Part shown: one piece after another, positions 1 through 33,030 of the stretch | Layout: each line of letters opens with the position of its first letter | How positions within the stretch are numbered: the first letter of the stretch is position 1 | Virus record (IMG/VR): IMGVR_UViG_2541047695_000003 | Direction: 5' to 3' (one strand) | From: a virus | Taxonomy: Duplodnaviria > Heunggongvirae > Uroviricota > Caudoviricetes | DNA: 34,489 nt | Translations under genes and position numbers: made by a program | Notes under the pieces: model-generated | The model's database searches: none | Seen by the model: only the letters and a program-made list of their open reading frames with translations | Told to the model about the DNA's origin: nothing

Positions 1-100
1 AAATTAGATACTAAATATATACGTGAAGGATGTTGAGCTGGTCAACGTCTACGGGGGAGAACATCCCCCGCTAACCTTTTTCTTATTTGAGGATTTACCT

Positions 101-202
101 ATGGTTGAATTTTTGATTTATCTGGCTGTAGGATTAACTATCGTATATTCACTGGCACATATTGGCATTTCTACTTTGTGTAACGCTTTCAAGTATCATT
201 AA
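101..202 (+). CDS. Small hydrophobic peptide (33 aa, MVEFLIYLAVGLTIVYSLAHIGISTLCNAFKYH), hypothetical
   Basis: ATG at 101 preceded by GAGGA Shine-Dalgarno (91-95); uninterrupted to TAA at 200-202; predicted single TM helix. Below the 60-aa cutoff of the ORF track. Confidence 0.25.
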   Translation: MVEFLIYLAVGLTIVYSLAHIGISTLCNAFKYH

Positions 203-693: not shown

Positions 694-717
694 GGGACTC
701 TTCGGAGTCCCTTTTTT
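694..717 (+). terminator. Rho-independent terminator (GGGACTC-TTCG-GAGTCCC plus TTTTTT), possibly bidirectional
   Basis: Perfect 7-bp stem with UUCG loop and T6 on + strand; A-rich on the other side; overlaps the stop codon of the minus-strand gene 716-1660. Confidence 0.5.
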
Positions 718-1660
718 ATTGGCAGTAAGAAAAGTTAGTACCGTACATTTCATCATGAAGCATTGCAACATTGCGTTTCTGTTCTTCTTCCTCGTCTACC
801 GCATCACTAGAAAAATGAGATTTGCCCTTAAAAGAACGAAGCAATTGCAGTGCAGCCATCGGATCACGCATCACATCGATTTTCACTTCTACTTCATCAT
901 TTGCGGCCTCATCAGCCGCATTTTCAACTACTGCCACCGGAGCAACTTCTTTAGCTTTCAGTTCTTCAATCTCAGCTTTCTGTGCTTCGATGATCTGGTC
1001 TTTTTCTTTCAGTGCAGCTTTCAGTTCTGCGATCTGTGCTTCCAGTGCAGAGAAACGATCTTCAACAGCAACCGGAGAAACAGCATTAACCTGTGCTTCC
1101 AGTTCTACGAAAGCGTCGCAAGATTCAATACGTGCTTTTTCTTCACCTTCATATGCAACCAGTTCTACTACTTCTTTCTCAGTAGCGTGGCTGTTAAAGA
1201 ATACAGCAAAGTAAGGATTGCCGGATTTGGTGAAGTTCAGTTTAGCTTTTCCGGTAACTTCTTTACGACGACCAAAGGTAATGTTGCAATCAGCGGTATC
1301 CTGAAAATCCATGTTAGGAGCGGAAACGATAGCAGTATCACCAGCAATCACTAGGTGGAACAGTTCAGAAGAGTTCTTAACGGTGAAAGTAACGATGTGG
1401 TCTACTGCAACGTCTTTAGCAGGTTTAACGCGGTCGATTGCTTTACGAATGCCGTTAGGCAGTTTACCGTCAACACCAAAGCCAGCCGCGATCAGTGCTT
1501 CACGATGTGCTTTAAAGCCAGCGAAAGCGGATTTCTGCTGCGCAAAGGAAACATGAGCAACAACTTTCGGCTGAATCTTCTTGTTTGCTTCGGTGCCAAA
1601 TTTGATAACTGCTTTAGCGTTGGTTACTTCGTTAGTGAAAAAGTTAGCGGAAAATAACAT
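716..1660 (-). CDS. Hypothetical early protein (314 aa): globular N-terminal region, central coiled-coil, acidic C-terminal tail
   Basis: Long ORF with diverse composition; AGGAG SD 9 nt upstream of ATG (1660); the + strand overlapping ORFs are low-complexity Phe/Ser-rich artefacts. Function not recognised. Confidence 0.75.
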   Translation of the reverse strand: MLFSANFFTNEVTNAKAVIKFGTEANKKIQPKVVAHVSFAQQKSAFAGFKAHREALIAAGFGVDGKLPNGIRKAIDRVKPAKDVAVDHIVTFTVKNSSELFHLVIAGDTAIVSAPNMDFQDTADCNITFGRRKEVTGKAKLNFTKSGNPYFAVFFNSHATEKEVVELVAYEGEEKARIESCDAFVELEAQVNAVSPVAVEDRFSALEAQIAELKAALKEKDQIIEAQKAEIEELKAKEVAPVAVVENAADEAANDEVEVKIDVMRDPMAALQLLRSFKGKSHFSSDAVDEEEEQKRNVAMLHDEMYGTNFSYCQ

Positions 1661-1704
1661 TATAAATACTCCTGTGGAAAGTTAGTTTTAATTGTTCATT
1701 TCAA

Positions 1705-1742
1705 GCCTCCTTTGCTGCAACAAGGGAGGCTTTTTCTTTTTT
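1705..1742 (+). terminator. Hairpin plus T-run (GCCTCCTTTG...CAAGGGAGGC TTTTTCTTTTTT) between two minus-strand genes
   Basis: 10-bp stem (1 mismatch) followed by T-run on the + strand; on the minus-strand RNA the same hairpin lies in the intergenic leader of gene 716-1660 and contains an AGGAGG sequence. Confidence 0.4.
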
Positions 1743-1774
1743 AAAGCCATCATATAATTCTCAGTGAAAGTGGA

Positions 1775-1954
1775 TTAACAAACTTGAACGTTAATCTTTA
1801 CCTGAATTTCGTATTTCTTCATTAGCTTGTAGAATCCGCTTCTATCAATTCCTTCCTTCTTAAAGAAGTTTTCCCCGCCTCGCTCAGTGTCGCTGTAAAA
1901 GCGTTTAGCAATATCAACAATCATTTCACGAGTGAACTTAACAGGTCTAGCCAT
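1775..1954 (-). CDS. Small HTH DNA-binding protein (59 aa, MARPVKFTREMIVDIAKRFY...GIDRSGFYKLMKKYEI), paralog family A
   Basis: ATG at 1954 (minus) with GAGGA SD 8 nt upstream (the track ORF starts at an upstream TTG, 1969). Shares the RPxxF...DIA...GI...FYKxMKK motif with 5372-5599 and the C-terminus of 5634-6239. Confidence 0.6.
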   Translation of the reverse strand: MARPVKFTREMIVDIAKRFYSDTERGGENFFKKEGIDRSGFYKLMKKYEIQVKINVQVC

Positions 1955-2053
1955 AAGTAGATTCCTCAAATGTGGATTAATAAGGACAATAAAAAGAGCT
2001 TTTCGCCCTCGATACTTCTATTTATAAAAGTCATTTCAGAAAACCCTGCAAAA

Positions 2054-2075
2054 CCACTGTGTATCTGATCAGTGG
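2054..2075. repeat. Inverted-repeat site CCACTG-N10-CAGTGG (operator-like)
   Basis: Perfect 6-bp arms; a near-identical copy lies at 2139-2160; adjacent to a candidate leftward promoter (-35 TTGCAG 2050-2045). Confidence 0.4.
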
Positions 2076-2138
2076 GAGCACGAATTGCTAAAGAGAAGAT
2101 TAATTATTAATCAATTCGTACAATATTCAACCGAAAAA

Positions 2139-2177
2139 GCACTGTATATCTAACCAGTGCTGTATGAATTAGCAGTG
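2139..2177. repeat. Inverted-repeat site GCACTG-N10-CAGTGC followed by a third CAGTG half-site
   Basis: GCACTGTATATCTAACCAGTGC (2139-2160), then CAGTG again at 2173-2177; direct repeat of the 2054-2075 element (CACTGT-TATCT-A-CAGTG core). Confidence 0.4.
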
Positions 2178-2296
2178 AATCAGGAGATTTTCAGAAGTGA
2201 ACAATCATTTCACACATGTATTTATAACGTGGAAATTCTTGCTTATCATCTATATGGGGACTGTTTAGAAAATTTCAACCCCCACCAGTGAGAAAA

Positions 2297-2325
2297 AGTA
2301 TAAAATAATCCTTGACAGTTGTCAA
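2297..2325 (-). promoter_or_regulatory. Candidate sigma70-type promoter reading leftward (-35 TTGACA, 17-bp spacer, -10 TATACT), overlapping palindrome TTGACAGTTGTCAA
   Basis: Minus-strand TTGACA at 2325-2320 and TATACT at 2302-2297 with exact 17-nt spacing; the perfect 14-bp palindrome 2312-2325 could also be an operator. Confidence 0.4.
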
Positions 2326-2519
2326 TGCACTTGACCTAAGCGAGAAATGACTATCAAAATTTTTGTTTGAAAATGGTAGATCAGGATTATCAACCTTTAT
2401 AACCTATTATAGCGCGGAGACCTTTTGACAATTCTTTTTAAATCATTAACTTACGCCACTTTTTGGTGATTTTTTGATTAAATAATATACAAGAATTTTC
2501 TATCAAAATATTTGATGGG

Positions 2520-2770
2520 AATTGCCCCTGAAATTCTGAATTTTTGCCCCCGAATAAAATCCCCAAGATTCTACTATCCCATTTTTGCCCCTGAAACCTA
2601 CTATTTTTGCCCCTGAAATTCTGGGAAACAGTGATTTTGCCCCTCATTTTTGCCCCTGAAATGCCAATAATTGCCCCTGAAAATCTAATTTTTGCCCCTC
2701 ATTTTTGCCCCTGAAAAGGATTGGTGAGAAAAACCCTTTATAAAACATTAACTTAGCGAGGGGCAAAAGC
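2520..2770. repeat. Iteron-like array: ~9 direct copies of (T)TTTTGCCCCTGAAA (core GCCCCTGAAA / GCCCCTCA) plus one inverted copy (GAGGGGCAAAA)
   Basis: Cores at 2524, 2555 (variant GCCCCCGAAT), 2587, 2609, 2639 (GCCCCTCA), 2652, 2673, 2694 (GCCCCTCA), 2707; inverted copy 2759-2769; irregular spacing of roughly 13-32 bp; no spacer regularity, no coding potential. Confidence 0.75.
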
Positions 2771-2859
2771 GGGGGATCGGGCGTGCATAGATATTATATA
2801 ACACATTCGCTACGCTCATGTGTAAAACTAAAAACAACAAATAACCAAAAAGATAATTA

Positions 2860-2878
2860 GGAGGGCGTAGCCCGACTG
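2860..2878. repeat. Direct repeat copy 1: GGAGGGCGTAGCCCGACTG (contains GGGC-N3-GCCC mini-hairpin)
   Basis: 16/19 identical to copy at 3291-3309; the two copies bracket ~430 bp of repeat-rich non-coding DNA. Confidence 0.5.
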
Positions 2879-3055
2879 CGCGAAGCGCTAACCAATTACT
2901 TCTAGTAACAACTAATTTAAACTAGATGATACTAGATGGTCTTAGAAGGAATTAACTAGTTTGCTCGCTCGCTTCGCTCACTCTCAAACGTCTGCGACGC
3001 CACTGCGTGGCATCGAGAATCACTTCTGAAAGGATTTTCTCGAAAGGGATTTAAT

Positions 3056-3142
3056 ACTAGTTACTAACTGATTCTAGAAAGATAGTAATAATCACTTTGA
3101 AGATAATAGTAGTTAACTGGTTACTAGATGATTCTAGATCAC
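3056..3142. repeat. Tandem imperfect repeats of a TTACTA(A/G)(C/A)TGATTCTAGA-containing unit (about 60-bp period); related ACTAGATGATACTAGATGG at 2921-2940
   Basis: TTACTAACTGATTCTAGAAA (3061-3080) vs TTACTAGATGATTCTAGATC (3121-3140), 17/20 identical; each followed by CACTTT(G/A)A. Confidence 0.45.
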
Positions 3143-3167
3143 TTTAATGATCATGAAAGGTATTGGT

Positions 3168-3196
3168 ATCCCTTCGGGATTGCAACCTTCGGTTGC
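3168..3196 (+). other. Two adjacent GC-stem hairpins with TTC(G) loops (ATCCC-TTC-GGGAT; GCAACC-TTC-GGTTGC), no T-run
   Basis: Back-to-back stable stem-loops seen directly in the sequence; not followed by a U-run, so not a canonical terminator. Confidence 0.3.
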
Positions 3197-3290
3197 TAAA
3201 TTGCTTCCTGATTATTATTTCTCCAAAAGAAAGATTATTATATTCTAAAGATACTTCTTCGTTTTGATCATAATTTAATCAAATCATGAA

Positions 3291-3309
3291 GGAGGGCTTT
3301 GCCCGACTG
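3291..3309. repeat. Direct repeat copy 2: GGAGGGCTTTGCCCGACTG
   Basis: See copy 1 at 2860-2878. Confidence 0.5.
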
Positions 3310-3398
3310 AATACAATCACCTTTCATAATAACAAGAATTTTCTCTTTATAAATAATAGTGAACTTACTTGATTCACTTTCTTTTAGAGGATACCACT

Positions 3399-3848
3399 AT
3401 GATCAATACTAAAACTCCTTTCGTACTTCTGGGTCTGGACTCTGAAAACTATGGTAACTTCCATATGCTAGAAGTTTTCGCTCATCGTGGTTATAACATC
3501 ATTCGTCATTCCGAAGACTCCAACTACTCAACTGCTTTCTACGCTTTAAAACGAAATGGTCGTCCTACTGTGATCATCGACTGTTTTACTGATGAGGGTC
3601 GTCTTCAATACAACGATATTCCAGCAATTATTGTTCGTGATGATCTGCCGTTTCAAGTCCGTTCCGGTGACATTGACCTGGGTAGCTTCTTGACTCTTCG
3701 TGAACTGGATGAAGCAATGTTTAATTACGGTAAAGAAACCGCTCAGGAAGCCCCAGAACAAGATGAGGAAGACGAAGACTACGCACCAATCGCTTTCTCT
3801 TCTCACGGTGGCTTCTACGGTTACGACGAAGGCTTAGATATGCTGTAA
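3399..3848 (+). CDS. Hypothetical early protein (149 aa) with strongly acidic C-terminal tail
   Basis: ATG at 3399 (MINTKTPFVLLG...) with GAGGA SD; the track ORF starts 10 codons earlier without an RBS. C-terminus EAPEQDEEDEDYAPIAF... is acidic. Confidence 0.7.
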   Translation: MINTKTPFVLLGLDSENYGNFHMLEVFAHRGYNIIRHSEDSNYSTAFYALKRNGRPTVIIDCFTDEGRLQYNDIPAIIVRDDLPFQVRSGDIDLGSFLTLRELDEAMFNYGKETAQEAPEQDEEDEDYAPIAFSSHGGFYGYDEGLDML

Positions 3849-3883
3849 GTTAGGTCAACCCTTTGGCATCTTGTCAAGGGGTA

Positions 3884-3912
3884 TTGACAAAAATTTCTGA
3901 CTTTTTTATGAT
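3884..3912 (+). promoter_or_regulatory. Candidate sigma70 promoter (-35 TTGACA 3884-3889, 17-bp spacer, -10 TATGAT 3907-3912); -35 embedded in inverted repeat TTGTCAAGGGGTATTGACAA (3871-3890)
   Basis: Consensus -35 and near-consensus -10 with 17-nt spacing about 55 nt upstream of the 3969 start codon; a second TTGACA lies at 3921-3926. Confidence 0.5.
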
Positions 3913-3968
3913 TATCGAACTTGACAACTTTGAACCTATTTGACCTAGATTTGTAAAGAGGATGTAAC

Positions 3969-4301
3969 ATGAAAGAATTTACCATCACTAAATCCCTGTA
4001 TGACTGGACTGTTAAAATCTCCGGCAAAACCGTTTCTGTAACCCCTAGCCATGTAGAAAATGATTGGGGCGTATCCCGTGAAACTATCTCCCGTAGTATG
4101 CATGTTCCGTTTGATCTGATGACCTTAACTGGTATTCATGCAATGCTGGAAGTTCGCGAGCAATTCGAAGCTGGTAATCACAATGCAACTCCAGTTAGCA
4201 ATCACCTTCTTACTAATGAAGAACGTGAAATCATCGAAAACTGGCGTTATGAATATGCGATTCCTTATTATGAAGAAGACCAAGTAGAAATCGATTGGTG
4301 A
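3969..4301 (+). CDS. Hypothetical protein (110 aa)
   Basis: ATG with AGAGGA SD 7 nt upstream; promoter candidate immediately upstream; no recognisable motif. Confidence 0.75.
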   Translation: MKEFTITKSLYDWTVKISGKTVSVTPSHVENDWGVSRETISRSMHVPFDLMTLTGIHAMLEVREQFEAGNHNATPVSNHLLTNEEREIIENWRYEYAIPYYEEDQVEIDW

Positions 4302-4389
4302 TAAATTTCTATTATAAATAAAATTGTTCCGGTTGAGATGCCGGAACTAGGAGGATCAATCACTAAACCGTTTAAGGGGAATTAATACT

Positions 4390-5196
4390 ATGAATACTGT
4401 TACCGTTATGAATACTGCTAAAACTGCTTCCGTGTCTCTGGTTGTTGATAACACCAAACCGCTGACCATGTCTTCCCGTCAGATCGCTGAATTTACCGGA
4501 AAGAAACACTTTCACGTAAAACGCGACATTCGCGAAATGCTGATTACCTTAGAATTAGATGAATCCAAATTTGGATGCATCTTTTTTGACCAATATGGAC
4601 GCGAGCAAACAGAATATCACTTGAATGAAGAACTGACTCTGACTCTTGTCACTGGTTACAATATCCAGATGCGAAACGCGGTTATTCAGGAATGGAAGCG
4701 ACTGAAAGAAGAAAATGAAAAACTTCGCTCTACTCCGGTTAACCCGTATGCAGACTTTGAAGAAACAGACTGGATCGAACTGGCATTAAAGAAAACTCGC
4801 GAAAATAAAAAGCTGATTGAACTTCATGTTCGCAAATCCGTAGATAGCCATTCAATGACGCGTCTGTTAGGCGCTAAAAAGGGCGCTACGAAGGTTAAAG
4901 AAGCACTGACGGCCTTACGTACTGCTGGATACATCGAGCGCGTCTATGATGAAAATAACAAGCCGTGTGGGTATGTTGCTAATGATTCTTCTCTCTCTTT
5001 CTGCCGCATGAATGCTCACTACCAACTTGAGTTTACTGTTGATGTGCTTCCGGTGCTGGTTGAATTGGGTGTTTTGGAAGAAGAACAAAAAGCAACTCTG
5101 AATCTTCCTAAGCCGAACAACACTATTCTGATTCAAAATAAAGCGGCTGAACGTCTCCGTCAGAATGTTGGATCACTGGAAGTCTTCGGACTGTAA
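4390..5196 (+). CDS. Rha-family phage regulatory protein / antirepressor-like (268 aa)
   Basis: N-terminal SRQIAEFTGKKHFHVKRDIREML matches the conserved Rha-domain signature (HxxVxRDI) as I recall it; AAGGGG SD; followed by a strong terminator. Confidence 0.75.
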   Translation: MNTVTVMNTAKTASVSLVVDNTKPLTMSSRQIAEFTGKKHFHVKRDIREMLITLELDESKFGCIFFDQYGREQTEYHLNEELTLTLVTGYNIQMRNAVIQEWKRLKEENEKLRSTPVNPYADFEETDWIELALKKTRENKKLIELHVRKSVDSHSMTRLLGAKKGATKVKEALTALRTAGYIERVYDENNKPCGYVANDSSLSFCRMNAHYQLEFTVDVLPVLVELGVLEEEQKATLNLPKPNNTILIQNKAAERLRQNVGSLEVFGL

Positions 5197-5202
5197 TTAA
5201 TC

Positions 5203-5236
5203 GCCCGGCGCATAATTGCGCTGGGCTTTTTGTTTT
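5203..5236 (+). terminator. Rho-independent terminator (GCCCGGCGC-ATAATT-GCGCTGGGC plus TTTTTGTTTTT)
   Basis: 9-bp stem with one G-U pair followed by a T-run directly after the 4390-5196 stop. Confidence 0.7.
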
Positions 5237-5330
5237 TATAGATAACAGCATTTTTGCTGGCATCTATAGATCAGTCCAGATTTGGACTCAACTTAGAAAT
5301 GAGCGCAGTTTTGCGCCGATTGTTTTACAT

Positions 5331-5356
5331 ACAAAAAAGCCACTCCGAAGAGTGGC
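5331..5356 (-). terminator. Rho-independent terminator for the leftward operon (GCCACTC-TTCG-GAGTGGC plus U-run on minus strand)
   Basis: Perfect 7-bp stem 5339-5345/5350-5356; A6 on + strand (5333-5338) gives a U-run after the hairpin on the minus transcript; 15 nt beyond the stop of 5372-5599. Confidence 0.6.
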
Positions 5357-5371
5357 AAAGAGAATCAAAAC

Positions 5372-5599
5372 TCAAAAACCTGTTGCTTCTACGATCTGAC
5401 CATCACCGATCTGAACATAGAATTTAATGTCTAACTTCTTCATATTCTTATAGAATTGGGCAATTGAAATCCCATGTTCACTAAGAATCTGTTCTTTCGC
5501 TTCCTTACCACGATCCGCTGTATAATAAGCGTAGGCAATATCAGCCATTTGTTCAGCGTTAAAACGGGCAGGACGACCGCGAGTAGCTTTAGTAGTCAT
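5372..5599 (-). CDS. Small HTH DNA-binding protein (75 aa, MTTKATRGRPARFNAEQMADIAYAY...GISIAQFYKNMKKL), paralog family A; resembles terminase-small-subunit / AlpA-type N-terminal HTH
   Basis: Second in-frame ATG (5599) has GGAGAA SD at 6-nt spacing; the first ATG (5605) abuts the SD. GRP-x-RF...DIA...GIS..FYK.MKK motif shared with 1775-1954. Confidence 0.6.
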   Translation of the reverse strand: MTTKATRGRPARFNAEQMADIAYAYYTADRGKEAKEQILSEHGISIAQFYKNMKKLDIKFYVQIGDGQIVEATGF

Positions 5600-5633
5600 A
5601 GTCATTTCTCCAAATTAAAGTGAATGTTCACTT

Positions 5634-6239
5634 TTATTTAGAGGACTTACATTTTATCGGAAAAAGTTCTCCATCGTCAATACTCATAAAGAACTCTGCC
5701 TTAATCCCGTACTTCTTCAACCGTGAATAGTATGTACCCCGACTTATATCAACCTTGCGCAGCACTTCAAAGAACCCTTTAGGATCGTTGTAATAGTGGC
5801 TGTATCGCACGTTAGCGAGTTCTACAAACAATTCCCTTGTATCACCATAGCCTTTCTTGAAAGCCTCGTTACGATAGCGTGTAATAGCGTGATTCAATCT
5901 CTTCTGTTTCAACACTTCTCGGATCGGCTTCCACTGCAACCTATAGATAGGACCGTCATCAATGCGATAATAACGCTTGATATCAAAATCAAACCAATCT
6001 CGGACTCGCTGAAACTCTGTCTGTGAGGTGCGATACTTCTTAAAGAAGTTATGAATATCGGTATACCCATGATCACGATACAACTCGATTAAAATCTGTT
6101 TAGCTTCCTCACGACTAAAGCCAGATGTTGTGTAATCAGTCTTCTTGTGATGGTGCTTAACTGGCAAACGATATTCATGATCGGTACAACAAGAAAAGGC
6201 TAATTCTACTTCATCTCTTTGTTGCTGATTAATTAGCAT
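5634..6239 (-). CDS. Hypothetical protein (201 aa) with C-terminal HTH-like segment ([16 protein letters not shown]) related to paralog family A
   Basis: AGGGGG SD 5 nt upstream of ATG 6239; divergent from the terminase gene; function unknown. Confidence 0.7.
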
Positions 6240-6326: not shown

Positions 6327-8234
6327 ATGAAACTAATTTCTAATAAGGCCAAATTAAAAAAGATTCTCAGAAATGCAGCCAAATATATTACGCCACCGCC
6401 TAAACTCCTTCCATCGGAATGGTGCGAAGCTAATATGGTGCTGGTAGATGGTCCTCAAGCTGGGGATAAAGTTAAATTGCTGTCATTCCAGAAAGGTATG
6501 ATTGATGCTCCTTTCCTTGAGAACAAGAAAAAGTATGTTCTGATGACCAGTGCGCAGATCGGAAAGACTACCATCCTGAACGGCATCCTGTTTAACCAGA
6601 TGGCTAACGATCCATGCAATATGATTATCGGACAATCAACCGCTAAAGAAATGTCTCAATATCTCGCTGGTAAGATCCGACCGTCTATCGAAGCATGTGA
6701 TGCATTAAAAGACGTGGTTACAGACAAGAATGATCGCAATGCGGTTAACAACAATAACCAACTCCAGCTAAAAACGAATCACTTCCTGTACATGGTATCG
6801 CTTACCAGTCCATCAACCCTGCGCGGTAAGACTGCAAAGGTCGGACTACTAGACGAAATCGATGCTGCTACAGCCTCAGAAGAAGGTGATCCGGTGGCAC
6901 TGGCTGCTAACCGTTTAACTACCTTTGGCGATGAAGGCCGATTAGTCGTATCCAGTACCCCGACCAGTAAGCTCGGAAGCATTAACCAGCAATGGTTATC
7001 AAGCGATATGCGTATGTTTTTTGTTCCGTGTCCTCATTGCGGGGAACACCAGGTGATCGAGTGGGAAAACGTTCAATTTGAATGGCGTAACATCGATGGT
7101 AAGAACTTACCCGATCCTGATACCGCTCGTTATATTTGCCCCCACTGTAAGAACGCATGGACAGAAGGGGAACGAATCAGGGCAGTAGCGCAAGGCGAGT
7201 GGAGAGCAACCCGTGAAAGTGAAGTAGCAGGATTCTGGATTAGCCGTCTGTATTCACCTTTCAGCACGATCCGCGCTTGTGTGGTTGATTTTAGTCATGC
7301 GTGGCAATCCTTTGATTTACAATCATTTTATAACACCGTGTTAGGCAAGGTATACGATGATCAGGACACGGCAGTAGAAGCAAATGAACTGGAACAACTC
7401 AAAACAGATGTTTCTATCGAGAATATCCCTGATGACGTGATTTTCTTGTGCTCAGGAATTGACCAGCAATTGGATCGCGCAGAATCTACCATCTTAGGTG
7501 TAGCGAAAGATAAGGTTTACATTCTGGATCACCGTAGCTTTTACGATCATAACTGTGAACGATACGAATCACCTGTATGGGATCGTCTGGTTAACTTCAA
7601 GAAAACCAAATTCTATAACGTTAATGGTGAACGTGTGCCAATGCTCGCCAGCTTCCTCGATACATCAAACGGTCGATTCACTCAAGCCGGATACCGTATT
7701 TGTGGTAAGTGGAAGAACCTACACGCTATTAAAGGTAGTTCATCTGGTAATGCTCCAGTGATTCCGGTTAAACCTACCCGCACAGGTGGTCATGAATTGC
7801 TTATGCTGGGCGTTAACGTTGGTAAATCCGCTGTTCGTGAAATGCTGGTTAGAAACCTGAAAGATAATCCTCATATTGGCTTAGAAATATCAGAAACCGT
7901 TCCTGATGATTATCTCGATCAGCTTTTGAGTGAATCCATCAAGCGTACTACTACTGGTGTTCGTTGGGTGAAAAATCCAGGTAGTACCCGAAACGAGGCT
8001 CTCGACTGTCTGGTTTATAGCTATGCTGCTTCTCGCTACGTCCTTTCAAAAATGTCATGGGATAAACTCATTGCAATGAAAGACAGCTTAAACAGCGTTA
8101 AAGAAGAACCCGTAAAAGCTCCTGAATCGCAATCTGACGAGCAAATCGAAGAAACTAAGCCAATCACACGACCGCAACGTCAAAACATCGCCAGACGCCC
8201 AAATAGAGGCCGTAGCTGGGTAACATCGTTCTAA
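6327..8234 (+). CDS. Terminase large subunit, lambda gpA family (635 aa)
   Basis: By recall of lambda gpA: matching N-terminal EW-x-ANxxL...FQ segment, Walker-A-like SAQIGKT, CPHCGE...YICPHC zinc-ribbon-like pair, and C-terminal RNEALDC(L/F)VY motif; GAGGG SD; first gene of the long rightward structural operon. Confidence 0.9.
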
Positions 8235-14180: not shown

Positions 14181-17100
14181 ATGCAGTCGATCCAATTTAA
14201 ACGAACAAATGTTTCTGGCAAAAAACCAACGCCGGAACAATTACAGGTCGGTGAGGTAGCAATCAACCTTAAAGACCATGTTATTTTTACCAAAGACCGA
14301 GATCATGAAGTAGTTCAAATCTCTGTTTCTCCTGAAACTCACGCGGCACTAGAATCTAAAGTTGATGCTAATAAAAAAGAACTGGATAGCACAATTGCAG
14401 TAAATGACCGCAATATTCACGCTAAAGTAGATGAAATTAAACAAACTACTGATGCAACCATCGCAGCAAATCACGCAGAAATTAACAATAAAGTTGATGT
14501 AATTAAACGCGAAACCGACGCGACAATCGAGGCCAATAAAAATAAAGCTGCTTCCGATCTTGCTGGTGTTAAAGCTGAATTGTCGGATACCATCAACGCT
14601 AATAAAAATGCGGCTGCTGTAGCAACTCAGGAACTGGACACCCGCATCAATAAAAAAGTTGATGATATTAAATCCCGTACCGATGCAACCATCGCAAGCA
14701 ATGACAAAGCAATCAATGACAAAGTTGATTTGATTAAGGCAGAAACTGACCGCACTATCGCAGCAAATCACGCCTATGCGGAAAATCAGTTAACTGACAC
14801 CTACAATAACCTTACTGGTGTGATTGCAGCCAATAAGCAAGAGGCAGCGGATAACGTCGCAGCATTAACCCGTGATGTTGAAGCCAAAAATACAGCAATT
14901 CATAGCAAAGTTGACAATAACAAGTCTTACACTGATTCTGAATTGGCACGTTTAGAAAGCCGTATTGATGCAGCCGATGGATCTGCTGATGGCAAGTACA
15001 TCAAAAAACACGTAAACACTTATACTGATGGTTATTTGCTGTCTAAGACCGCAAACTATTTTGATGATCCAAATGCGCGTAATCTTGATTACTTTGGTGC
15101 ATTCCGCATGAATGACCTGGCGGGTCATATTGCAATGATCTTGCATGTTCCGCATCCATCTGGTGTTAATCATGCTCGTGGCTTCGAGTTCACTTATGGG
15201 TCTAATCCACATGCTACTGTAAGAACATACGGCTATGATGAATTGGGACATTTGGCATATTCTCACCGCATGTATCATGAAGGTGATAAACCTACTCCGG
15301 CTGAAATTGGCGCATATTCGAAAGCAGAAATTGACCGACTGTTCCAGAAGACGCTTAATTTTGGTATCGAGGGTGGTTGGTTTAAACTAGGCACTTTGAC
15401 AATGCCACAACAACACGGTCGCACGGCTAAGATCCGTTTGGTTGGTGGTAACGGTTATAACGTAGGACATAATGGACAAGCCAATATTATCGAATTGGTG
15501 ATTCGATGCGGCAACAATAGCCCGAAAGGTGTTGTATTCAATGCGTATTATACTATTTGGCATCATGAACAACATTTTTGCGCTATTCCAACCGATGGCG
15601 ACAATTACGATCTTTACGCTTACTACGGTGCACATACAGGATTTGTTTTAGCAGAATATCAAGTTTCTTCCGGTGGTGTTTCTTTAAACCTGTTGGATAC
15701 TCCTGAATATCTGGGTGGTGAAAAACCTGTTGCAGATGAAATTTTTGATGCTCTTAACATTTCATCGTTCAATAACTTTAGCAACCGTGGGACGTTAAAT
15801 TTTGCTGGCAATCATCAAGGCCAATATGATATTGAGCATTTAAACGAACAACCGACAAATGCTAAAAAGATGTTGCGTCGCTTCCGTAGTTGTGCACCAG
15901 CTACAATCTGGCATGAGACAGTTGATGATAACGCATATCGTCTTGCTACTGGATACGAAGATACAAATCAGGAATTATTGCTGTCAGCAACATCCGGGTT
16001 ACATGTCAAGAAATTAACATTGGATGGCGGTGTTACTGGAAATTCTGGTATTGATATTCGTCGAGGACCAAACGAATCAAGCCATTTTAATTTCATGGAT
16101 TATCGCACTGGACAAGATGTTCGTAATGGCTGGTTTGGCTTCGGTGATGGTCAGACCAAAGATTTTATTTGGTGGAACGATAACGGTCAAAACTCTATAA
16201 ACCTGATTGAAGATGGTGAATTGCATATTACTGGCGGTAAAGGCCAGAAAATTGTAATGAATAGCGAAGTTGCATTATCTGAAAATGCTCGTTTGGCTGT
16301 CAAAGGTGGTAACTATGGTTTAATCCTTCGTAATGATGGTTCTAGCTTCCATATTCTTACTACCGATTTAAAAGATTCCTTTGGGACGTGGAACACTCGT
16401 AGACCATTTAGTTATGATTTCGCCGAAGGTGGATTAGATCTAGGTGGCACAGCTACCGCACGCTGTTTACATCTGGGAATTGATGGTAGCACCCGCATCG
16501 AAGATAATATGGTGTTTAGATCAGGGTCTCGTCAGTCAATGGACTATATTGAATTAATCCATTGGGGTAACAGTAATACCGCTCGTAACAACGTTTTGAG
16601 TATGAAAGACTCGAAAGGATTCCTTGCTGAATTTGAACGCGTGGGGGGTACTAACGGCGTTAAAACCAGATTCTTTGGCGAAACATTCACTGACGGTACA
16701 TTATACCTAAATCAGATGAATAATAGCTCTGAACGATTCTCTATCAATAACTGGGGAAATTCAGAAGTTGGTCGCGCGGCAGTGATGGAAGTCGGTGATT
16801 CCAAAGGTTATCACTTCTATACTGAACGTAGGACAGATAACAGTTTGATGTTTGATGTTGCTGGCGCTTTTACTGTGCATGGACCTTCCGGGATTACTAT
16901 CAAAAACTCTGCTGGTGCTCGCCACGTCTGGTTTAGAGATGATAGCGATACGGAAAAGGCTGTTATCTGGGCTACAGATGAGGGTATTTTACATATTCGC
17001 AATAACCACGGTGGACAATTTACACATCACTTCCAGGGCGCGATGATTAAACTGGAAGGGCGTGTTCCTTATGCCGCAGATCAAGGACTTATCCGTGGTG

Positions 17101-24108: not shown

Positions 24109-27100
24109 TGGGATTTGAAATATTAGTAGGCGCGGTGATCGCTGGTGCTTCGGCGGGGATGGCGGCAGCCGCAACATTTTCTGTTATGACCGCAGTCGCT
24201 ATCGGTATGGCTGCTGGTGCAATGACCTTGATCGCTTCCACTGTAGGCGCACCAAAAACACCGAAAGTACAAAGCCCAGATAATGCGGTGACACTAGGAA
24301 CATCAAACGATCCGAAAACAGTATTACCCGTTCTTTTTGGTACTACCCGCACGGGTGCAATCTGCGTTTACAAGGCAATTTCACAGCGTGAAAATAACAA
24401 GCTGGTACAAATTTTTGCTATTGCCGAAGGTGAGATCGATCACTTTAAAGCACTGCACATCGATAATAAAAACGTTCTCATTAGCCAGAATATGACAATT
24501 CGTGATGGCATTCTCGATAAAGGAAACATTAAAGACGAATACCGCAAAGTTTTAGAAGTCGAGTTTCGCACGGGTAAAAATCCTAACACTGCATTGGATT
24601 TAGCTAAACATCATTTGGGCGCTGATTGGGATGATCGGTATCAGGGTAACGGCATTGCGACCATGTGTATTGTTTTACGTCGTGATGACAAATCTTTGGC
24701 TGCTGGTGTTGATATTCTCCAGCCTAATAGCCAGGTAGCGGTCGATGTTATGGGCTTAAAGATTCGTAACCTTGAAACCAATGCTATTGAGGCTAGCACT
24801 AACGGCGTGGACCAGATTTTCCATTATCTGACAAATACAAAGTATGGTCTTAGTGTACCGATTGAAAATATTAACGTTGATTCATTCCTGAAAGTGCGTA
24901 AACAAGTACGCCAGATGGATTTACATTCCAACGGTGCATGTGATCCGAACGCCAGCTTTAAAGAGAACTTAACTAGCCTTATGCAGACTTTCGGCGGGGT
25001 GATGTTCGAATCCTTTGGACGTATTACGCTGAAACTGGATGCTCCTGATATTGTTAAGCATACCTTCAATGAAGACAATATCATGATGGGAAAAGTATCA
25101 CTGAAAACAGGTGGCACTAACGGTTATTTCAATACCATTAACGCGATGTATCAAGAACCATCAATCGACTATTCAGAGCAAATGCTACGTTATCCGGCTG
25201 ATGCTGAAAACGATGCTACTATTCGTCAAGATGGTCGAATTATCGCTAAAGATATTGAATATCGTTTTGTTAAGTCTAAAGCCCAGATTGATAAACTTGC
25301 GAGTGTAGAACGAAATAAATCTCGTATCACTCAGGTTATCAGCTTTATGACTACTGACGCATTCACCGCCGAAGTATGGGACGTTATCAGCGTAACCTAT
25401 GATGAATTGAAACTGAATAATTCACTTTGGCGCATTACTGCAATTGATCGTTCTATTGATTCTGGTATTGCTGGGATGATGACTATCACCGCCACAGAAT
25501 ATAATTCTCAGGTTTATACTGACCTGAACTATGCGGCAACTCCAGACAATAGACCTACTGGTTTACCGGATTCAATGACAGTACAGAAACCGACTAATTT
25601 CAGAATTAAGGCAACTGGTGAGACAATCCACGGTAAAAACGTTACTTTGACATGGGATGCACCGGAAGATTTTAACCGCTACGGTTTCCAGATTGATTAC
25701 CGTGTAAGTGGATCGCCTAACTGGATTAAGCTGGGGCAGACTTCACAGCAAATTTTCAATATCAATGCACTGGCAAAAGATCGCTCCTACGATTACCGCG
25801 TTTGTGCTTTCGGTATTATTGCTCGTTCCGAATGGGTGGAACTGGTTAACCAGAATCCTACTGTTACCTATGAATTGCCGACTCCGGTTATTCGAATCAA
25901 AAATCAGGGTAGCACGCCTGGTACTTTCGAAGGCAATGATCTGATTATCGAATGGGAAAATCAGCAACAATTAGATGTGATGATCAACGGTGAAGCTAAC
26001 AAGTTTAGTGACCTGTTTGAAGCATACATTATCAAGGTAACTAACAAGGCTGGTAAGTCTATTCAGTACCGTACCCGCGATCCTGAATCATGGACTTATA
26101 CGCTTGATATGAACCAGTTTAACGGCCTTTCCCGTGAATTGACGGTAGAAGTATCAGTCAAGGGCTATAACAACTCAGAGAGCGCCCCAGCGCGTTTAGT
26201 GGCTATCAACCCACAACATAAGCCGATGAAAGGTTTTAGTGCGCGTGGTGGCTTTAATACTGCGTTTGTTAGCTGGGCGGATGACGTAGAACATGACTAT
26301 GCAGGGTCAATCATCCAGTATGCAACCGATAATACTTTCTCCGATGCAAGGGCAGTGACTACCAATAGCGTTAGTCATACTTCCTTTGATTTGGCTGACG
26401 GTGATTATTATATCCGTGGTGCTCACTATGATATTTTCGGTATGGATGATGCTGTTTGGTCTGAACCGTATTTCATGCAAATGAAATCTACCATTAGCTG
26501 GGACGATCAGGACAAAGAAGCACTGGAAGACCTGATTGGTTTACAAGATCGCTTAGATGAAACCATCGCGGATGCTATTGCTCAAGCTGGCGCTAATGCC
26601 GATGCTAAGATTGATGCAATGCATAAACAGATTACTACCGAGACAGGGCAGACGGTCCAAGCCTCAGCCGATACTCTCAAGAGTCTGATTGCTACCAGTG
26701 AGCAAGCCAGCGCAACTAAGATTGATCAGGTTAAAGCTGAACTGAAAGGCGATATCACCAAAGAAGTTAGCGCATCCGCTACTACCCTGAAACAAGCAAT
26801 TGCTACCAGTGAGGCAGCAAGCGCAAGTAAGATTGATCAAGTTCGGGTAGAAATGGATGGCAAGATTGCTGGTGTGAATCAGGAAGCAGATGTAAAAATC
26901 GATGCTTTGAAGGGAACCATTAACAGCAAATATAATCTGGCAGTTAATGCAGATGGTCGCGTGGCTGGTATTCATATGAGCGCAACCAATGATCCGGCAG
27001 AACCGACAAGAATCATCTTTACGGCTGATAAAATCGCGGTAGCTCCACAAGACGGATCAGAAGTTTGTCCGTTTGGCATCGAAGATAACAAAGTTTATCT

Positions 27101-27854
27101 TGATAATGCGATGATTCGTAATGCTGCAATTGGCACAGCCCAGATTAGTGATGCTAGTATCACCACGGCTAAGATCGGCACAGCCCAGATTAACGGCGCT
27201 CACATCCAACACGCACAGATCGGAACAGGTCATATCATTGATGGCTCTATCGATAATGCTAAAATTGGTAACTATATCCAGTCTTATAACTGGAATGGTA
27301 ACGATGGATGGTATATCGGCAAAGATGGCACTTGTCATTTTAGACACGCTAATATTCGTGGTCATTTGGTGGCTGATTCCGGCGAAATGAACAACGTAAC
27401 GATTAATTCAAGTTGCCGCATTTTGGGTATGCTTGATGCTAATCAGGTGCGTGGTGACTTCGTGAAAGTGGTTGGTAGGAGTTTCCCGCATCGCCAACCA
27501 AACTGGCCTGATGGTGCAATCACTGTAAGGGTCGAAGATGATCATCCATTCGATCGCCAAATAGTGATTCCAGCGATTCATCATAACGGGTCTGTTCGTA
27601 GTGGCGAAAGTAGCGATCATTGGGATACTTGCCGACTAATCGTTAAGAAAAATGGTGGTGTTCTATATGATCGCACTGCAACTTCTGGCTGTATGTACAG
27701 TGGAGTTATTGACATGCCAGCCGGACACGGGGCAGTAACAATGACTTTTGAAGTTTACTGTAAGGGCGTTAACAACTATAACCCAAGTGCATATATCAGC
27801 GATCTAACGGTAATGGTAACTAAGAAAGCCGCTACTGGTATTTCTGTTTCTTAA
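24108..27854 (+). CDS. Tail tip attachment / host-specificity protein, lambda J-like (1248 aa) with N-terminal lambda gpI-like hydrophobic segment
   Basis: By recall of lambda: C-terminal ~150 aa match the lambda J receptor-binding region (DDHPFDRQIV, DMPAGxGxVxxTF, VMVxKKxAxGISV); N-terminal ~95 aa resemble the C-terminal half of lambda gpI (hydrophobic Gly/Ala stretch, APKTPK, VLPVLFG); central region has Ig/FN3-like segments and repeats ATSE(Q/A)ASA(T/S)KIDQV. Confidence 0.9.
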   Translation: MGFEILVGAVIAGASAGMAAAATFSVMTAVAIGMAAGAMTLIASTVGAPKTPKVQSPDNAVTLGTSNDPKTVLPVLFGTTRTGAICVYKAISQRENNKLVQIFAIAEGEIDHFKALHIDNKNVLISQNMTIRDGILDKGNIKDEYRKVLEVEFRTGKNPNTALDLAKHHLGADWDDRYQGNGIATMCIVLRRDDKSLAAGVDILQPNSQVAVDVMGLKIRNLETNAIEASTNGVDQIFHYLTNTKYGLSVPIENINVDSFLKVRKQVRQMDLHSNGACDPNASFKENLTSLMQTFGGVMFESFGRITLKLDAPDIVKHTFNEDNIMMGKVSLKTGGTNGYFNTINAMYQEPSIDYSEQMLRYPADAENDATIRQDGRIIAKDIEYRFVKSKAQIDKLASVERNKSRITQVISFMTTDAFTAEVWDVISVTYDELKLNNSLWRITAIDRSIDSGIAGMMTITATEYNSQVYTDLNYAATPDNRPTGLPDSMTVQKPTNFRIKATGETIHGKNVTLTWDAPEDFNRYGFQIDYRVSGSPNWIKLGQTSQQIFNINALAKDRSYDYRVCAFGIIARSEWVELVNQNPTVTYELPTPVIRIKNQGSTPGTFEGNDLIIEWENQQQLDVMINGEANKFSDLFEAYIIKVTNKAGKSIQYRTRDPESWTYTLDMNQFNGLSRELTVEVSVKGYNNSESAPARLVAINPQHKPMKGFSARGGFNTAFVSWADDVEHDYAGSIIQYATDNTFSDARAVTTNSVSHTSFDLADGDYYIRGAHYDIFGMDDAVWSEPYFMQMKSTISWDDQDKEALEDLIGLQDRLDETIADAIAQAGANADAKIDAMHKQITTETGQTVQASADTLKSLIATSEQASATKIDQVKAELKGDITKEVSASATTLKQAIATSEAASASKIDQVRVEMDGKIAGVNQEADVKIDALKGTINSKYNLAVNADGRVAGIHMSATNDPAEPTRIIFTADKIAVAPQDGSEVCPFGIEDNKVYLDNAMIRNAAIGTAQISDASITTAKIGTAQINGAHIQHAQIGTGHIIDGSIDNAKIGNYIQSYNWNGNDGWYIGKDGTCHFRHANIRGHLVADSGEMNNVTINSSCRILGMLDANQVRGDFVKVVGRSFPHRQPNWPDGAITVRVEDDHPFDRQIVIPAIHHNGSVRSGESSDHWDTCRLIVKKNGGVLYDRTATSGCMYSGVIDMPAGHGAVTMTFEVYCKGVNNYNPSAYISDLTVMVTKKAATGISVS

Positions 27855-31343: not shown

Positions 31344-33023
31344 TTAAATTCCAAATTCCTGTAATGGACCTGGTATTTCCTCTTCTGGTTTCCAGTTCTT
31401 ATCTGTCAGCATGTCTAAACATGGATGCAGAACAAGCCCGTTGCTCTCCAGAATCTGCCTATCATTGATAGTTTTCAAATCAATGAATATCCGGCCTTTC
31501 CTCGTTCCTCTTGAATTTTCTATTACAACTCTCTGGGTCTTTCCATCGATGTATTCCAGCACAAACAAGTTTTTATTTCTGTCAATCCTGCTACACCCGA
31601 TCCGCTTTAGAGCTTGCTTAATCTTAAACCGGACCTTTAGTCGTTCCTCGTTATAAACATCTTCTAAATCAAATTCTGCGAGCTTCTCCCAGCCTTGAGA
31701 GTCCACAGAATACATTTCCTCTTCTGCCATCTTGATCTGATTGTAGAGTGTTTCACGCTCGCTATTGAGGGTAGTAATCTGATCGGCTAGCTCCTTCGTT
31801 GCTCCTGTCATAGCAGAAAGGGCAATCAGGTTATCAATCTTGCGTGATATTTCATCAACCTGTACTTTCAACGCCGGAACCGGATTAGCCTTGTCCTCAG
31901 CAATCCATATTTTATCAGCCAGCAATTGCAATACAGCTTTCTCTAATTGATCACCTCGAAAACTCCAGTTTGGATGCTCGCAATCAAGTCTACGTGAACG
32001 GGTCGCATCACATGTATAACGATACTGGTCAGAACGTTTGTTCGTTCCCTTCACTTTAACCATAGCGCAACCGCAATGATCACATTTCAATAGGCCAATA
32101 CCACTAAGCAGGGGGATCGGTTTAACTTCTTCCTTGTCTCCAAAGTTCCATGCTCTAGCACCAATATTTTTCTTAAGGTGATAGAACGTAGCATCATCAA
32201 TAACACGAGGGTAATAATCCTTTAACTCATAGTTAACACCATCTACAGAGACTTCCTTGATACCAATCAAAGCGCGGGTATGGAACAACCTTTCAACCAT
32301 TGCCCGTGACCATTTTGAATGCTTCTTGTTGCTTACTGCTGGTGGCGGTGTATATGTCTCGTTAAGGTGATCCAGTATCTCGGCGGTTGAACGTCCATTC
32401 TTCCGTAATTCCACAATCTCCTGAACAACAGGGAAGTATGTAGGATGAGGCAACACATAACCGGAAGTGGTATCCGTCCACCACATATTCTTTCCAACTT
32501 CCTCGATTGCCACTGCCGGATTCTGGGGATTTTCTTGATGGGCTTTAATCTTAATCAGTGCGCTTGAGTTAGTACGATTGCGCTTAGTCTGGCTTTCCTC
32601 ATTACCACGGATGAATAAAAGGATGGAGAACATCAGGTCCATCGGGTTAGCGGTAACAGTATCCAGCGAGTAGATCTTGTTATCCATGCCAGTAACAATG
32701 GTTATTCCCCTACGGATGATTGAAAGGAATAACTCCTGCGCACTGACAATATCGGCACGGGATAAGCGGTCCAAGTTTTCAATGAATAGCCAGCTACCAA
32801 CAGGAACGGATCTACCAATTGCATCAAGGAAACGAGATAGCGCCCCTGTTTTAGAGTTAGCACCCTTAAACGCAGATACACCCAGATCCTGATAATCATT
32901 TACCAGTTCAAGGTCATACTTTGCCGCAACCTCTCTCGCCATCCTGATTTGTCGTTCATAACTCGAACCATCATTCTGACGCATAGACGAGAAGCGAATA
33001 TACGAATACAGTTTAGTTTTCAT
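31344..33023 (-). CDS. Large serine recombinase (serine integrase, 559 aa)
   Basis: N-terminus MKTKLYSYIRFSS...Q with catalytic-Ser resolvase-type domain, then a recombinase domain, Cys cluster (CDHCGC...C-x-A...CEH) and C-terminal coiled-coil, the architecture of phiC31/Bxb1-type integrases. Start taken at ATG 33023 rather than the upstream TTG 33038 of the track. Confidence 0.9.
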   Translation of the reverse strand: MKTKLYSYIRFSSMRQNDGSSYERQIRMAREVAAKYDLELVNDYQDLGVSAFKGANSKTGALSRFLDAIGRSVPVGSWLFIENLDRLSRADIVSAQELFLSIIRRGITIVTGMDNKIYSLDTVTANPMDLMFSILLFIRGNEESQTKRNRTNSSALIKIKAHQENPQNPAVAIEEVGKNMWWTDTTSGYVLPHPTYFPVVQEIVELRKNGRSTAEILDHLNETYTPPPAVSNKKHSKWSRAMVERLFHTRALIGIKEVSVDGVNYELKDYYPRVIDDATFYHLKKNIGARAWNFGDKEEVKPIPLLSGIGLLKCDHCGCAMVKVKGTNKRSDQYRYTCDATRSRRLDCEHPNWSFRGDQLEKAVLQLLADKIWIAEDKANPVPALKVQVDEISRKIDNLIALSAMTGATKELADQITTLNSERETLYNQIKMAEEEMYSVDSQGWEKLAEFDLEDVYNEERLKVRFKIKQALKRIGCSRIDRNKNLFVLEYIDGKTQRVVIENSRGTRKGRIFIDLKTINDRQILESNGLVLHPCLDMLTDKNWKPEEEIPGPLQEFGI

Positions 33024-33030
33024 ACCATTT

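What the first reader, a model, noticed from the sequence alone, without database searches (positions are those of the whole stretch)
2520..2770. Dense array of ~9 direct TTTTTGCCCCTGAAA repeats plus one inverted copy in a gene-free region
Nine copies of a 12-15 bp motif (core GCCCCTGAAA, variants GCCCCTCA and GCCCCCGAAT) occur within ~250 bp at irregular spacing, and the array is closed by an inverted copy (GAGGGGCAAAA, 2759-2769). Short motif, irregular spacing and T-tract spacers fit an iteron or protein-titration array: a replication origin, a terminase small-subunit recognition region (cosB/pac-like), or a repressor/partition-protein binding array. It is not a CRISPR array. No replication initiator or ParB is encoded in this window, so the cognate binding protein is unknown; it may be one of the three small HTH paralogs.
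Basis: seen in the sequence. Interest (0 to 1): 0.8.

Follow-up and report, generated by a model that had tools for sequence, protein, structure and literature searches.

The report
Prophage repeat array with matching orphan protein
A real cluster of nine short direct repeats plus one inverted copy in an uncharacterised E. coli prophage changes sequence in lock-step with the front half of a neighbouring 314-residue protein of no known family, so it is very probably that protein's binding array and most likely the phage's replication origin with its initiator.

Summary
TTGCCCCT occurs 10 times in the window against 0.74 expected, and nine of those lie at 2522-2766. With one TTGCCCCC variant this gives nine direct copies and one inverted copy. 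The copies sit in helical phase (period 10.7 bp). They abut the least stable 40-mer of a 1.4-kb gene-free gap.

The window is a ~36.6-kb E. coli prophage with a serine integrase, inserted in ycdX or hicB, found in about 1% of complete genomes.

Relatives carry different repeat motifs at the same spot, at least seven kinds. Only the N-terminal ~180 residues of ORF 716-1660 (minus strand) change with the motif: 33 type-A and 18 type-B genomes, no mismatched pairs, although the DNA between gene and array recombines freely. The small HTH paralogs do not track the motif.

The protein has a specificity domain, a leucine zipper and a swappable tail. It matches nothing in Pfam, PHROGs, NCBIfam, PADLOC or PDB.

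Best reading (about 0.5): an iteron-type lytic origin with a new initiator family. The repressor reading is weakened by a natural IS3 deletion of the module in an otherwise intact prophage. Partition and packaging readings fail their defining features. Binding and replication are inferred, not shown.

The parts
2520..2716 (+). Array of nine direct repeats, core TTTTTGCCCCT(GAAA), in helical phase
2758..2768 (-). Single inverted copy (GAGGGGCAAAA) closing the array; present in every type A and A' relative examined
2477..2516 (.). AT-rich, least stable 40-mer of the gap (99.95th percentile of the window), abutting the first repeat; candidate DNA-unwinding element. Contains the palindrome CTATCAAA-ATA-TTTGATGG (2501-2519).
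   Evidence: read
2717..2860 (.). Type-specific non-coding segment that is exchanged together with the array
716..1660 (-). 314-residue orphan protein. The N-terminal ~180 residues (about 1120-1660) change with the repeat motif; then a leucine-zipper coiled coil (about residues 190-245), an acidic linker and an exchangeable C-terminal tail. Proposed array-binding protein and initiator.
1775..1969 (-). Small HTH protein, first gene of the same leftward operon; does not change with the array type
2297..2325 (-). Near-consensus sigma-70 promoter-like site (TTGACA-17-TATACT, 11 of 12) pointing at 1775-1969 and 716-1660. Its -35 lies in the palindrome TTGACAGTTGTCAA. Conserved in all types (TTGACA-17-TATAAT in L018).

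Best explanation
The array is the binding-site array of the protein encoded at 716-1660 on the minus strand. One N-terminal domain of that protein reads one ~12-bp repeat. The copies lie on one face of the helix, so molecules joined through the leucine zipper can assemble co-operatively into a nucleoprotein complex. The most likely role of this complex is to start lytic DNA replication of the prophage. In that model the complex strains and opens the adjacent AT-rich 40-mer (2477-2516), and the exchangeable C-terminal tail recruits host or phage replication factors. The array also lies 195 bp upstream of the promoter of its own operon, and the inverted copy may give feedback on expression.

Shown here: the array exists, it is phased, it abuts the least stable DNA of the gap, and it changes strictly together with the protein's N-terminal domain.

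Inferred only: physical binding, origin firing, recruitment through the tail, and autoregulation.
For: 1. The same slot holds different arrays in relatives: TTTTTGCCCCTGAAA (A), ATTTTTGCCCCTC (A'), AAACCTACACTA (B), TCCCCGY (C), TTTRCGAT (C'), TCCCCGGTATTAG (D), TAGCATTTGAA (L072).

2. Of ten neighbouring proteins, only the 314-residue ORF tracks the array type: 96-100% identity in all type A loci and undetectable in B, C and D. The proteins in the equivalent position are remote homologues (E 1e-5 to 1e-7).

3. Related proteins go with related motifs: A with A' (51-55% identity, shared TTTTTGCCCCT core), and C with D (shared TCCCCG).

4. In complete E. coli genomes, 33 records carry the A gene with the A array and 18 carry the B gene with the B array. 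None has one without the other. Yet the ~860 bp between gene and array (the HTH gene and left flank) are shared across types at about 92%. Seventeen further viral-contig loci agree.

5. All arrays are helically phased, periods 10.6-11.2 bp, with many 21-22 bp spacings.

6. The least stable 40-mer of the gap touches the array. Types C, C' and the second array of type D are two clusters around an AT-rich spacer.

7. The whole prophage (~36.6 kb) has no other recognisable replication gene.

8. An IS3 deletion in strain 14EC029 removed the N-terminus of the protein, the HTH gene and the array, and left every other phage gene intact. The module is therefore not needed to keep the prophage silent, which fits a lytic function.

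9. The N-terminal specificity domain and the C-terminal tail are exchanged independently. From my knowledge, the lambda O initiator has the same layout: the N-terminus reads ori and the C-terminus binds the partner P.
Against: No homology to any known initiator or DNA-binding family. Two structure predictions failed (pLDDT 36.8 and 39.3), so not even the fold is known. No consistent DnaA-box or IHF consensus appears next to the arrays; only type D has two DnaA-box-like 9-mers. No helicase, primase or loader gene is present. The repeats (12-15 bp) are shorter than classical 17-22 bp iterons. Seven or more specificities among very close relatives is the pattern expected for immunity or incompatibility determinants. 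Two poly-lysogens carry different types, which also fits immunity. Covariation shows a functional pairing, not which function. The promoter calls are consensus matches only, at chance frequency for the region.
Confidence: 0.5

Rival explanations
1. Immunity module. The 314-residue protein is the lysogeny repressor, and the array is a multi-site operator or roadblock. This would resemble the phage Mu c repressor on O1-O3, or the asymmetric 'stoperators' of mycobacteriophage L5 gp71. The many specificities would then be heteroimmunity types.
For: Strict pairing of protein domain and array with conserved flanks, in seven or more types, is the classical signature of heteroimmune relatives. Strain UTME-9 carries a type A and a type B prophage with identical Rha, 77-residue and 201-residue proteins. 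BS74R-D carries type A plus a type that is neither A nor B. The layout (DNA-binding domain, zipper, tail) resembles the Mu repressor (my knowledge). Several tails end in -AA, reminiscent of ClpXP tags. The operon has a strong promoter.
Against: In 14EC029 the protein's N-terminus, its promoter, the HTH gene and the whole array are deleted, while the candidate rightward promoter region and all lytic and structural genes stay intact in a viable host. No promoter consensus lies within or next to the array. The motif does not recur at other promoters in the window: one further hit against 0.74 expected. Two differing poly-lysogens are expected by chance about 60% of the time given the type frequencies. 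Conserved palindromes (2313-2326, 2352-2370, 2501-2519) are better candidates for a conventional dimeric repressor.
Confidence: 0.13
2. An early regulator with no origin function. The protein coats the array to activate, silence or insulate the divergent early promoters, its own included. The known analogue is the omega protein of plasmid pSM19035 on heptad arrays, used there purely for transcription control.
For: The array lies upstream of the operon's own promoter: 195 bp in the window and about 45 bp in L018. It mixes direct copies with a closing inverted copy, as in omega sites (my knowledge). In L001 and L003 a terminator after the Rha gene contains the motif as a palindrome, TTTGCCCCTGAATTTCAGGGGC.
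Against: Nine to twenty phased sites next to the least stable DNA is more than regulators usually need. It leaves the phage with no origin or initiator candidate at all. It does not explain the two-cluster arrays with AT-rich spacers.
Confidence: 0.15
3. Packaging recognition. The protein is the small terminase subunit and the array is a cosB- or pac-like site.
For: The layout (N-terminal DNA-binding domain, oligomerisation coiled coil, short C-terminal tail) parallels small terminases such as lambda Nu1 (my knowledge). No small terminase is annotated next to the gpA-type large subunit.
Against: The gene lies 4.7 kb from the large terminase gene, on the other strand, in the early region. Array type and tail type do not follow the large-terminase type: the window and L001 share the array, the protein and its tail at about 97%, but their large terminases are 59% identical. 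The window and type B L002 have essentially identical large terminases. Region 1700-3400 is 96% identical between the window and L001.
Confidence: 0.05
4. Centromere. The array is a partition site bound by a ParR-, ParG- or omega-like adaptor.
For: Phased direct repeats upstream of the operon that encodes their binding protein resemble parC-ParR of plasmid R1 (my knowledge).
Against: No ParA, ParM or TubZ-type NTPase anywhere in the element. All 65 places in E. coli genomes are chromosomal and none is on a plasmid. No plasmid match. The element has a large serine integrase and defined insertion sites.
Confidence: 0.03

Closest known systems
Lambda O protein and ori-lambda (and the O-type initiators of other lambdoid phages)
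   Same: Phased repeats read by the N-terminal domain of a phage protein of about 300 residues. The N-terminal specificity domain changes with the repeats, while the C-terminal part is exchanged independently. AT-rich DNA lies beside the repeats (my knowledge of lambda; for this element).
   Different: No sequence similarity (Pfam Phage_rep_O not hit). The array lies outside the gene, 860 bp away, not inside it. Nine to fourteen asymmetric 12-15 bp direct copies rather than four ~19-bp sites. No P-like loader gene.
Iteron plasmids and phage P1 (RepA with the incC origin iterons and the nine irregularly spaced incA iterons)
   Same: Many direct repeats at roughly two-turn (21-22 bp) spacing, irregular in places. 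A cis-linked specific binding protein. The array sits next to the promoter region of its own gene. An array of about nine sites could also titrate the protein (my knowledge).
   Different: No winged-helix Rep homology detectable. No consistent DnaA boxes. The element is integrated, not a plasmid.
SaPI and PICI replication origins with their cognate Rep proteins
   Same: Island-specific pairs of repeats and binding protein. Two clusters of short repeats flank an AT-rich spacer, as in types C, C' and the second array of type D (my knowledge of SaPIs).
   Different: SaPI Rep is a helicase. The protein here has no NTPase motif or domain hit.
Phage Mu c repressor on operators O1-O3; mycobacteriophage L5 gp71 with stoperators
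   Same: Multiple asymmetric ~12-13 bp sites. The layout of DNA-binding domain, coiled coil and regulatory tail. Repressor and site motif evolve together among close relatives (my knowledge).
   Different: All sites are confined to one 250-bp cluster, not spread over promoters. A natural deletion of the module leaves the prophage silent. No sequence homology.
pSM19035 omega protein and R1 ParR-parC
   Same: Arrays of 7-10 short repeats, direct with some inverted, upstream of the operon encoding the binding protein.
   Different: Those proteins are small ribbon-helix-helix proteins working with a partition NTPase on plasmids. Here the protein has 314 residues, there is no NTPase and the element is chromosomal.

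Membership tests
Iteron-type replication origin with cognate initiator | Cluster of several directly repeated binding sites in helical phase | tested here: met
   Nine direct copies; best period 10.7 bp, R 0.83, p about 0.004. The same holds in six other arrays.
Iteron-type replication origin with cognate initiator | AT-rich, easily melted element beside the repeats | tested here: met
   2477-2516 is the least stable 40-mer of the gap and third in the whole window. Actual unwinding was not tested.
Iteron-type replication origin with cognate initiator | Cis-linked gene for a protein whose specificity matches the repeats | tested here: met
   Strict covariation with the N-terminal domain of ORF 716-1660: 33 type A and 18 type B genomes with no recombinants; 17 of 17 further loci agree.
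Iteron-type replication origin with cognate initiator | Initiator belongs to a known Rep, O or RepA family | tested here: not met
   No hit in Pfam, PHROGs, NCBIfam or PDB sequences. Only 12 representatives in 1.84 billion proteins.
Iteron-type replication origin with cognate initiator | Host-factor sites (DnaA boxes, IHF); common but not universal | tested here: not met
   No consistent consensus matches across types; only type D has two one-mismatch DnaA boxes.
Iteron-type replication origin with cognate initiator | Supports autonomous or induced replication that depends on the protein | not testable with these tools
   Needs a mini-replicon assay or marker-frequency sequencing.
Prophage immunity repressor with operators | Repressor gene and sites exchanged together between heteroimmune relatives | tested here: met
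Prophage immunity repressor with operators | Sites overlap the early lytic promoters | tested here: inconclusive
   No promoter consensus in or beside the array. The nearest candidates are 195 bp to the left and about 560 bp to the right. The scan is at chance level.
Prophage immunity repressor with operators | Needed to keep the prophage silent | tested here: not met
   One natural case only: 14EC029 lacks the window-equivalent 1400-3017 but keeps all other phage genes intact.
Partition centromere with adaptor protein | Partner partition NTPase encoded alongside | tested here: not met
   None in the element.
Partition centromere with adaptor protein | Extrachromosomal maintenance | tested here: not met
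   65 of 65 places are on chromosomes; no plasmid match.
Small terminase with cosB or pac site | Gene adjacent to the large terminase gene, with specificity following it | tested here: not met
   The gene is 4.7 kb away on the other strand. Array and tail types are independent of the large-terminase type.
CRISPR array | Regularly spaced repeats of 24-48 bp with unique spacers of constant length | tested here: not met
   Repeats of 12-15 bp at spacings of 13-41 bp.

The most novel reading that the evidence does not exclude
The 314-residue protein founds a new class of phage replication initiators. It has a modular, easily re-targeted ~180-residue DNA-reading domain of unknown fold, with at least seven natural specificities for ~12-bp sites. 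The resident prophage's array would also act as a sink for the initiator of an incoming phage of the same type. That would give integrated prophages a plasmid-like incompatibility, which would explain why the specificities diversify as immunity types do.
Probability: 0.2. Interest if true: 0.8.

Novelty: new variant of a known kind. Interest (0 to 1): 0.6.

Why it matters
This prophage family sits in about 1% of complete E. coli genomes, and the protein is recorded on more than a thousand contigs, including Shigella sonnei. Yet all seven proteins of its early region (716-6239) apart from the Rha-like one are orphans. The paired variation gives a concrete, testable handle on that dark region: one protein domain, one 12-bp site, and seven natural specificity swaps. 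If the module is the origin, it defines a new initiator family and a compact replicon. If it is an immunity or incompatibility determinant, it explains how near-identical prophages co-exist in one cell. In either case it offers a set of orthogonal protein and DNA-site pairs.

Tried and rejected
- Structure prediction of the full protein (pLDDT 36.8) and of the N-terminal domain with eight diverse sequences (pLDDT 39.3) both failed. The fold search on the second model gave only meaningless matches (TM at most 0.2).
- Profile searches found nothing beyond coiled-coil noise: PDB sequences, Pfam at E up to 1, NCBIfam and PADLOC.
- Rfam and tRNA scans of the window found nothing relevant. RNA folding of the array on either strand is no better than shuffles, so a structured or sponge RNA was set aside.
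- DnaA-box, IHF and GATC scans gave no consistent pattern.
- The genome-collection scan with the flank anchor returned only chance matches in unrelated bacteria.
- Literature searches for the insertion sites, protein accessions and the motif found no description of this prophage family.
- I asked whether the C-terminal tail type follows the large terminase, Rha, or the 77-, 110- or 159-residue proteins. It follows none.
- I looked for chimeras with only the C-terminal part of the gene. The four candidates turned out to be IS-truncated remnants.
- A profile of the family did not detect the proteins in the equivalent position of more distant relatives (50% large-terminase identity). The slot could therefore not be tied to a known function through those relatives.

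Full report
**What the window is.** The window is almost the whole of a prophage.
- It matches E. coli chromosomes in 58-61 of 5,426 complete genomes, never plasmids.
- The element is about 36.6 kb and is inserted in ycdX or in hicB.
- It has a large serine integrase (31344-33038, minus strand) and a gpA-type large terminase (6327-8234).
- It has siphovirus-like tail genes, an M15 endolysin and a T-even-like distal tail fibre.
- No isolated phage is close; the best capsid match is 43%.
- The early region holds seven proteins. Only the Rha-like one has any family hit.

**The observation.** It is correct as written.
- Nine direct copies and one inverted copy lie at 2520-2768, inside a 1.4-kb gene-free gap (1969-3369).
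- TTGCCCCT occurs 10 times against 0.74 expected.
- Spacings of 22, 41, 22, 30, 13, 21, 21 and 13 bp place the copies on one face of the helix (period 10.7 bp, p about 0.004).
- The array is not a regular tandem repeat, not coding, and not a stable RNA fold.

**The key result: the array is a swappable module.**
- The relative L002 has about 92% identical flanks. Immediately after the same conserved sequence (ttctatcaaaatWtttgatg) it carries about nine copies of AAACCTACACTA instead, at 13-23 bp spacings, mostly 21-23.
- A scan of viral contigs with the flank, plus look-ups of distant family members, gave more kinds:
  - type C, TCCCCGY, about 15-20 copies;
  - type D, TCCCCGGTATTAG;
  - type A', ATTTTTGCCCCTC, in quite different flanks;
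  - type C', TTTRCGAT, about 20 copies;
  - TAGCATTTGAA in L072.
- All are helically phased, with periods of 10.6-11.2 bp.
- Types A, A' and C end with inverted copies.
- Copy number within type A runs from 6 to 14.

**Which protein goes with it.**
- I compared ten neighbouring proteins of the window with 14 loci. Only ORF 716-1660 (minus strand) follows the array type. It is 96-100% identical in all type A loci and undetectable in B, C and D.
- The first gene of the same operon, the 64-residue HTH protein, does not follow the type. L002 (type B) has the window's version, and L006 (type A) has another.
- The other HTH paralogs, the Rha-like protein, the 159- and 110-residue proteins and the large terminase do not follow it either.
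- The proteins in the equivalent position (333, 337 and 371 residues) are remote homologues of one another, E 1e-5 to 1e-7.
- They share a layout: an N-terminal domain of about 180 residues, a leucine-zipper coiled coil, an acidic linker and a tail.
- The tail is exchanged independently. L006 has a type A head with another tail. P0124 has a type C head with the window's tail.
- Similar heads go with similar motifs: A with A', and C with D.

**How strict the pairing is.**
- In complete genomes, 33 records have the A head with the A array and 18 have the B head with the B array.
- The remainder have only the shared middle segment or the C-terminal end of the gene. Three of the four C-terminal-only records were inspected, and each is an IS-truncated remnant.
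- Seventeen further viral-contig loci agree.
- Gene and array are separated by about 860 bp that recombine freely between types. The absence of mismatched pairs therefore argues for selection on a functional pairing.

**How narrow the family is.** A full HMMER pass over 1.84 billion representatives found 12 hits, of which about five are full-length types, all Escherichia or Shigella.

**What the pair does.**
- For an origin:
  - many two-turn spacings;
  - the least stable 40-mer of the gap, at the 99.95th percentile of the window, touches the first repeat;
  - several types are two clusters around an AT-rich spacer;
  - the phage has no other candidate origin or initiator;
  - the split into head specificity and exchangeable tail parallels lambda O (my knowledge).
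- Against a repressor:
  - in strain 14EC029 an IS3-linked deletion removed the window-equivalent 1400-3017, which covers the head of the protein, its promoter, the HTH gene and the array;
  - all remaining phage genes there are annotated intact;
  - the motif is absent from other promoters.
- For a repressor or incompatibility role:
  - the number of specificities;
  - two poly-lysogens with different types, although that is expected by chance about 60% of the time.
- Partition fails: there is no NTPase and the element is always chromosomal.
- Packaging fails: the gene is far from the terminase gene, and the types are independent of the large-terminase type.

**Limits.**
- Binding has not been shown. 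The fold is unknown, because both predictions failed.
- Promoter calls are consensus matches at chance frequency. The leftward site, TTGACA-17-TATACT, is nevertheless conserved in every type.
- The deletion argument rests on one genome.

**Verdict.** The array is real and functional. It is very probably (about 0.85) the site array of the 314-residue orphan protein. The pair is most likely (about 0.5) an iteron-type lytic origin with a new kind of initiator. I rate it a new variant of a known kind, of moderate to high interest.

Noticed in passing
window 3209-3283: About 75 nt are 84% identical to intergenic sequences present in 1-3 copies in RB49-like (Krischvirus) T4-type phages; a 45-nt core is nearly identical. 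In RB49 the segment supplies TTGATC-17-TATTAA, but the -10 part is not conserved in the window. It may be related to the mobile promoter/stem-loop cassettes (PeSLs) described in PMC2839356.
   Followed up: partly
window 14181-17705 (and 24108-27854): The tail fibre gene shares 79-94% nucleotide identity with distal long tail fibre genes of T-even and RB49-like myoviruses. Yet it sits in a siphovirus-like prophage that also has a lambda J-like tip protein. This points to recent exchange of host-range genes between virulent and temperate phages.
   Followed up: no
window 2859-2878 and 3290-3309: The hairpin element AGGAGGGC-NNN-GCCCGACTG occurs twice (0.02 expected) and brackets a conserved, CTAG-rich 430-bp segment. 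In L018 the first copy has GGCC...GGCC, a change on both sides of the stem.
   Followed up: partly
window 3163-3198: Two adjacent hairpins with TTCG loops (ATCCC-TTCG-GGAT and GCAACC-TTCG-GTTGC), identical in L002. This suggests a structured RNA or terminator pair upstream of the first rightward gene. No Rfam match.
   Followed up: no
window 2313-2326, 2352-2370, 2501-2519: Conserved palindromes. TTGACAGTTGTCAA overlaps the -35 of the leftward promoter. CTATCAAA-N3-TTTG(A/T)T(G/T)G occurs twice, 149 bp apart, a perfect palindrome in L006. They are shared by types A-D, so they are candidate operators for a conserved dimeric regulator.
   Followed up: partly
L001 about 23595-23625 (and L003 about 7480): In two type A relatives the terminator after the Rha-like gene contains the array motif as a palindrome, TTTGCCCCTGAATTTCAGGGGC. 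The window has a different hairpin there.
   Followed up: no
L010 (oriented from the flank anchor) 250-500; L007 330-390: Type C and D loci carry a second protein of 333-363 residues downstream of the first. They also carry a second, different array. In type D this is about ten TGTACAAGG copies in two clusters around a 95-bp AT-rich spacer.
   Followed up: partly
L023 5205-5250; L018: Some type A and A' arrays are preceded by two or three type B-like CCTACAC sites. L023 sits in the same cell as a type B prophage, which hints at cross-talk or recombination between arrays.
   Followed up: no
L024, L026, L027 (E. coli EC05, 14EC029, L73): IS3 or IS5 insertions with deletions repeatedly hit the head of the 314-residue gene and the array. 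IS5 also sits in the window-equivalent 1700-3400 region in strain HeN100.
   Followed up: partly
window 23-202 and 256-429: Two small, very hydrophobic ORFs on the plus strand near the left prophage end, conserved in relatives; probably membrane-protein cargo genes.
   Followed up: no
L021 9060-11107 (strain 23CRST001): Between the endolysin and the integrase this relative carries a DEAD/DEAH helicase-family gene with a partner ORF that the window lacks. This is a variable cargo slot, possibly for defence genes.
   Followed up: no
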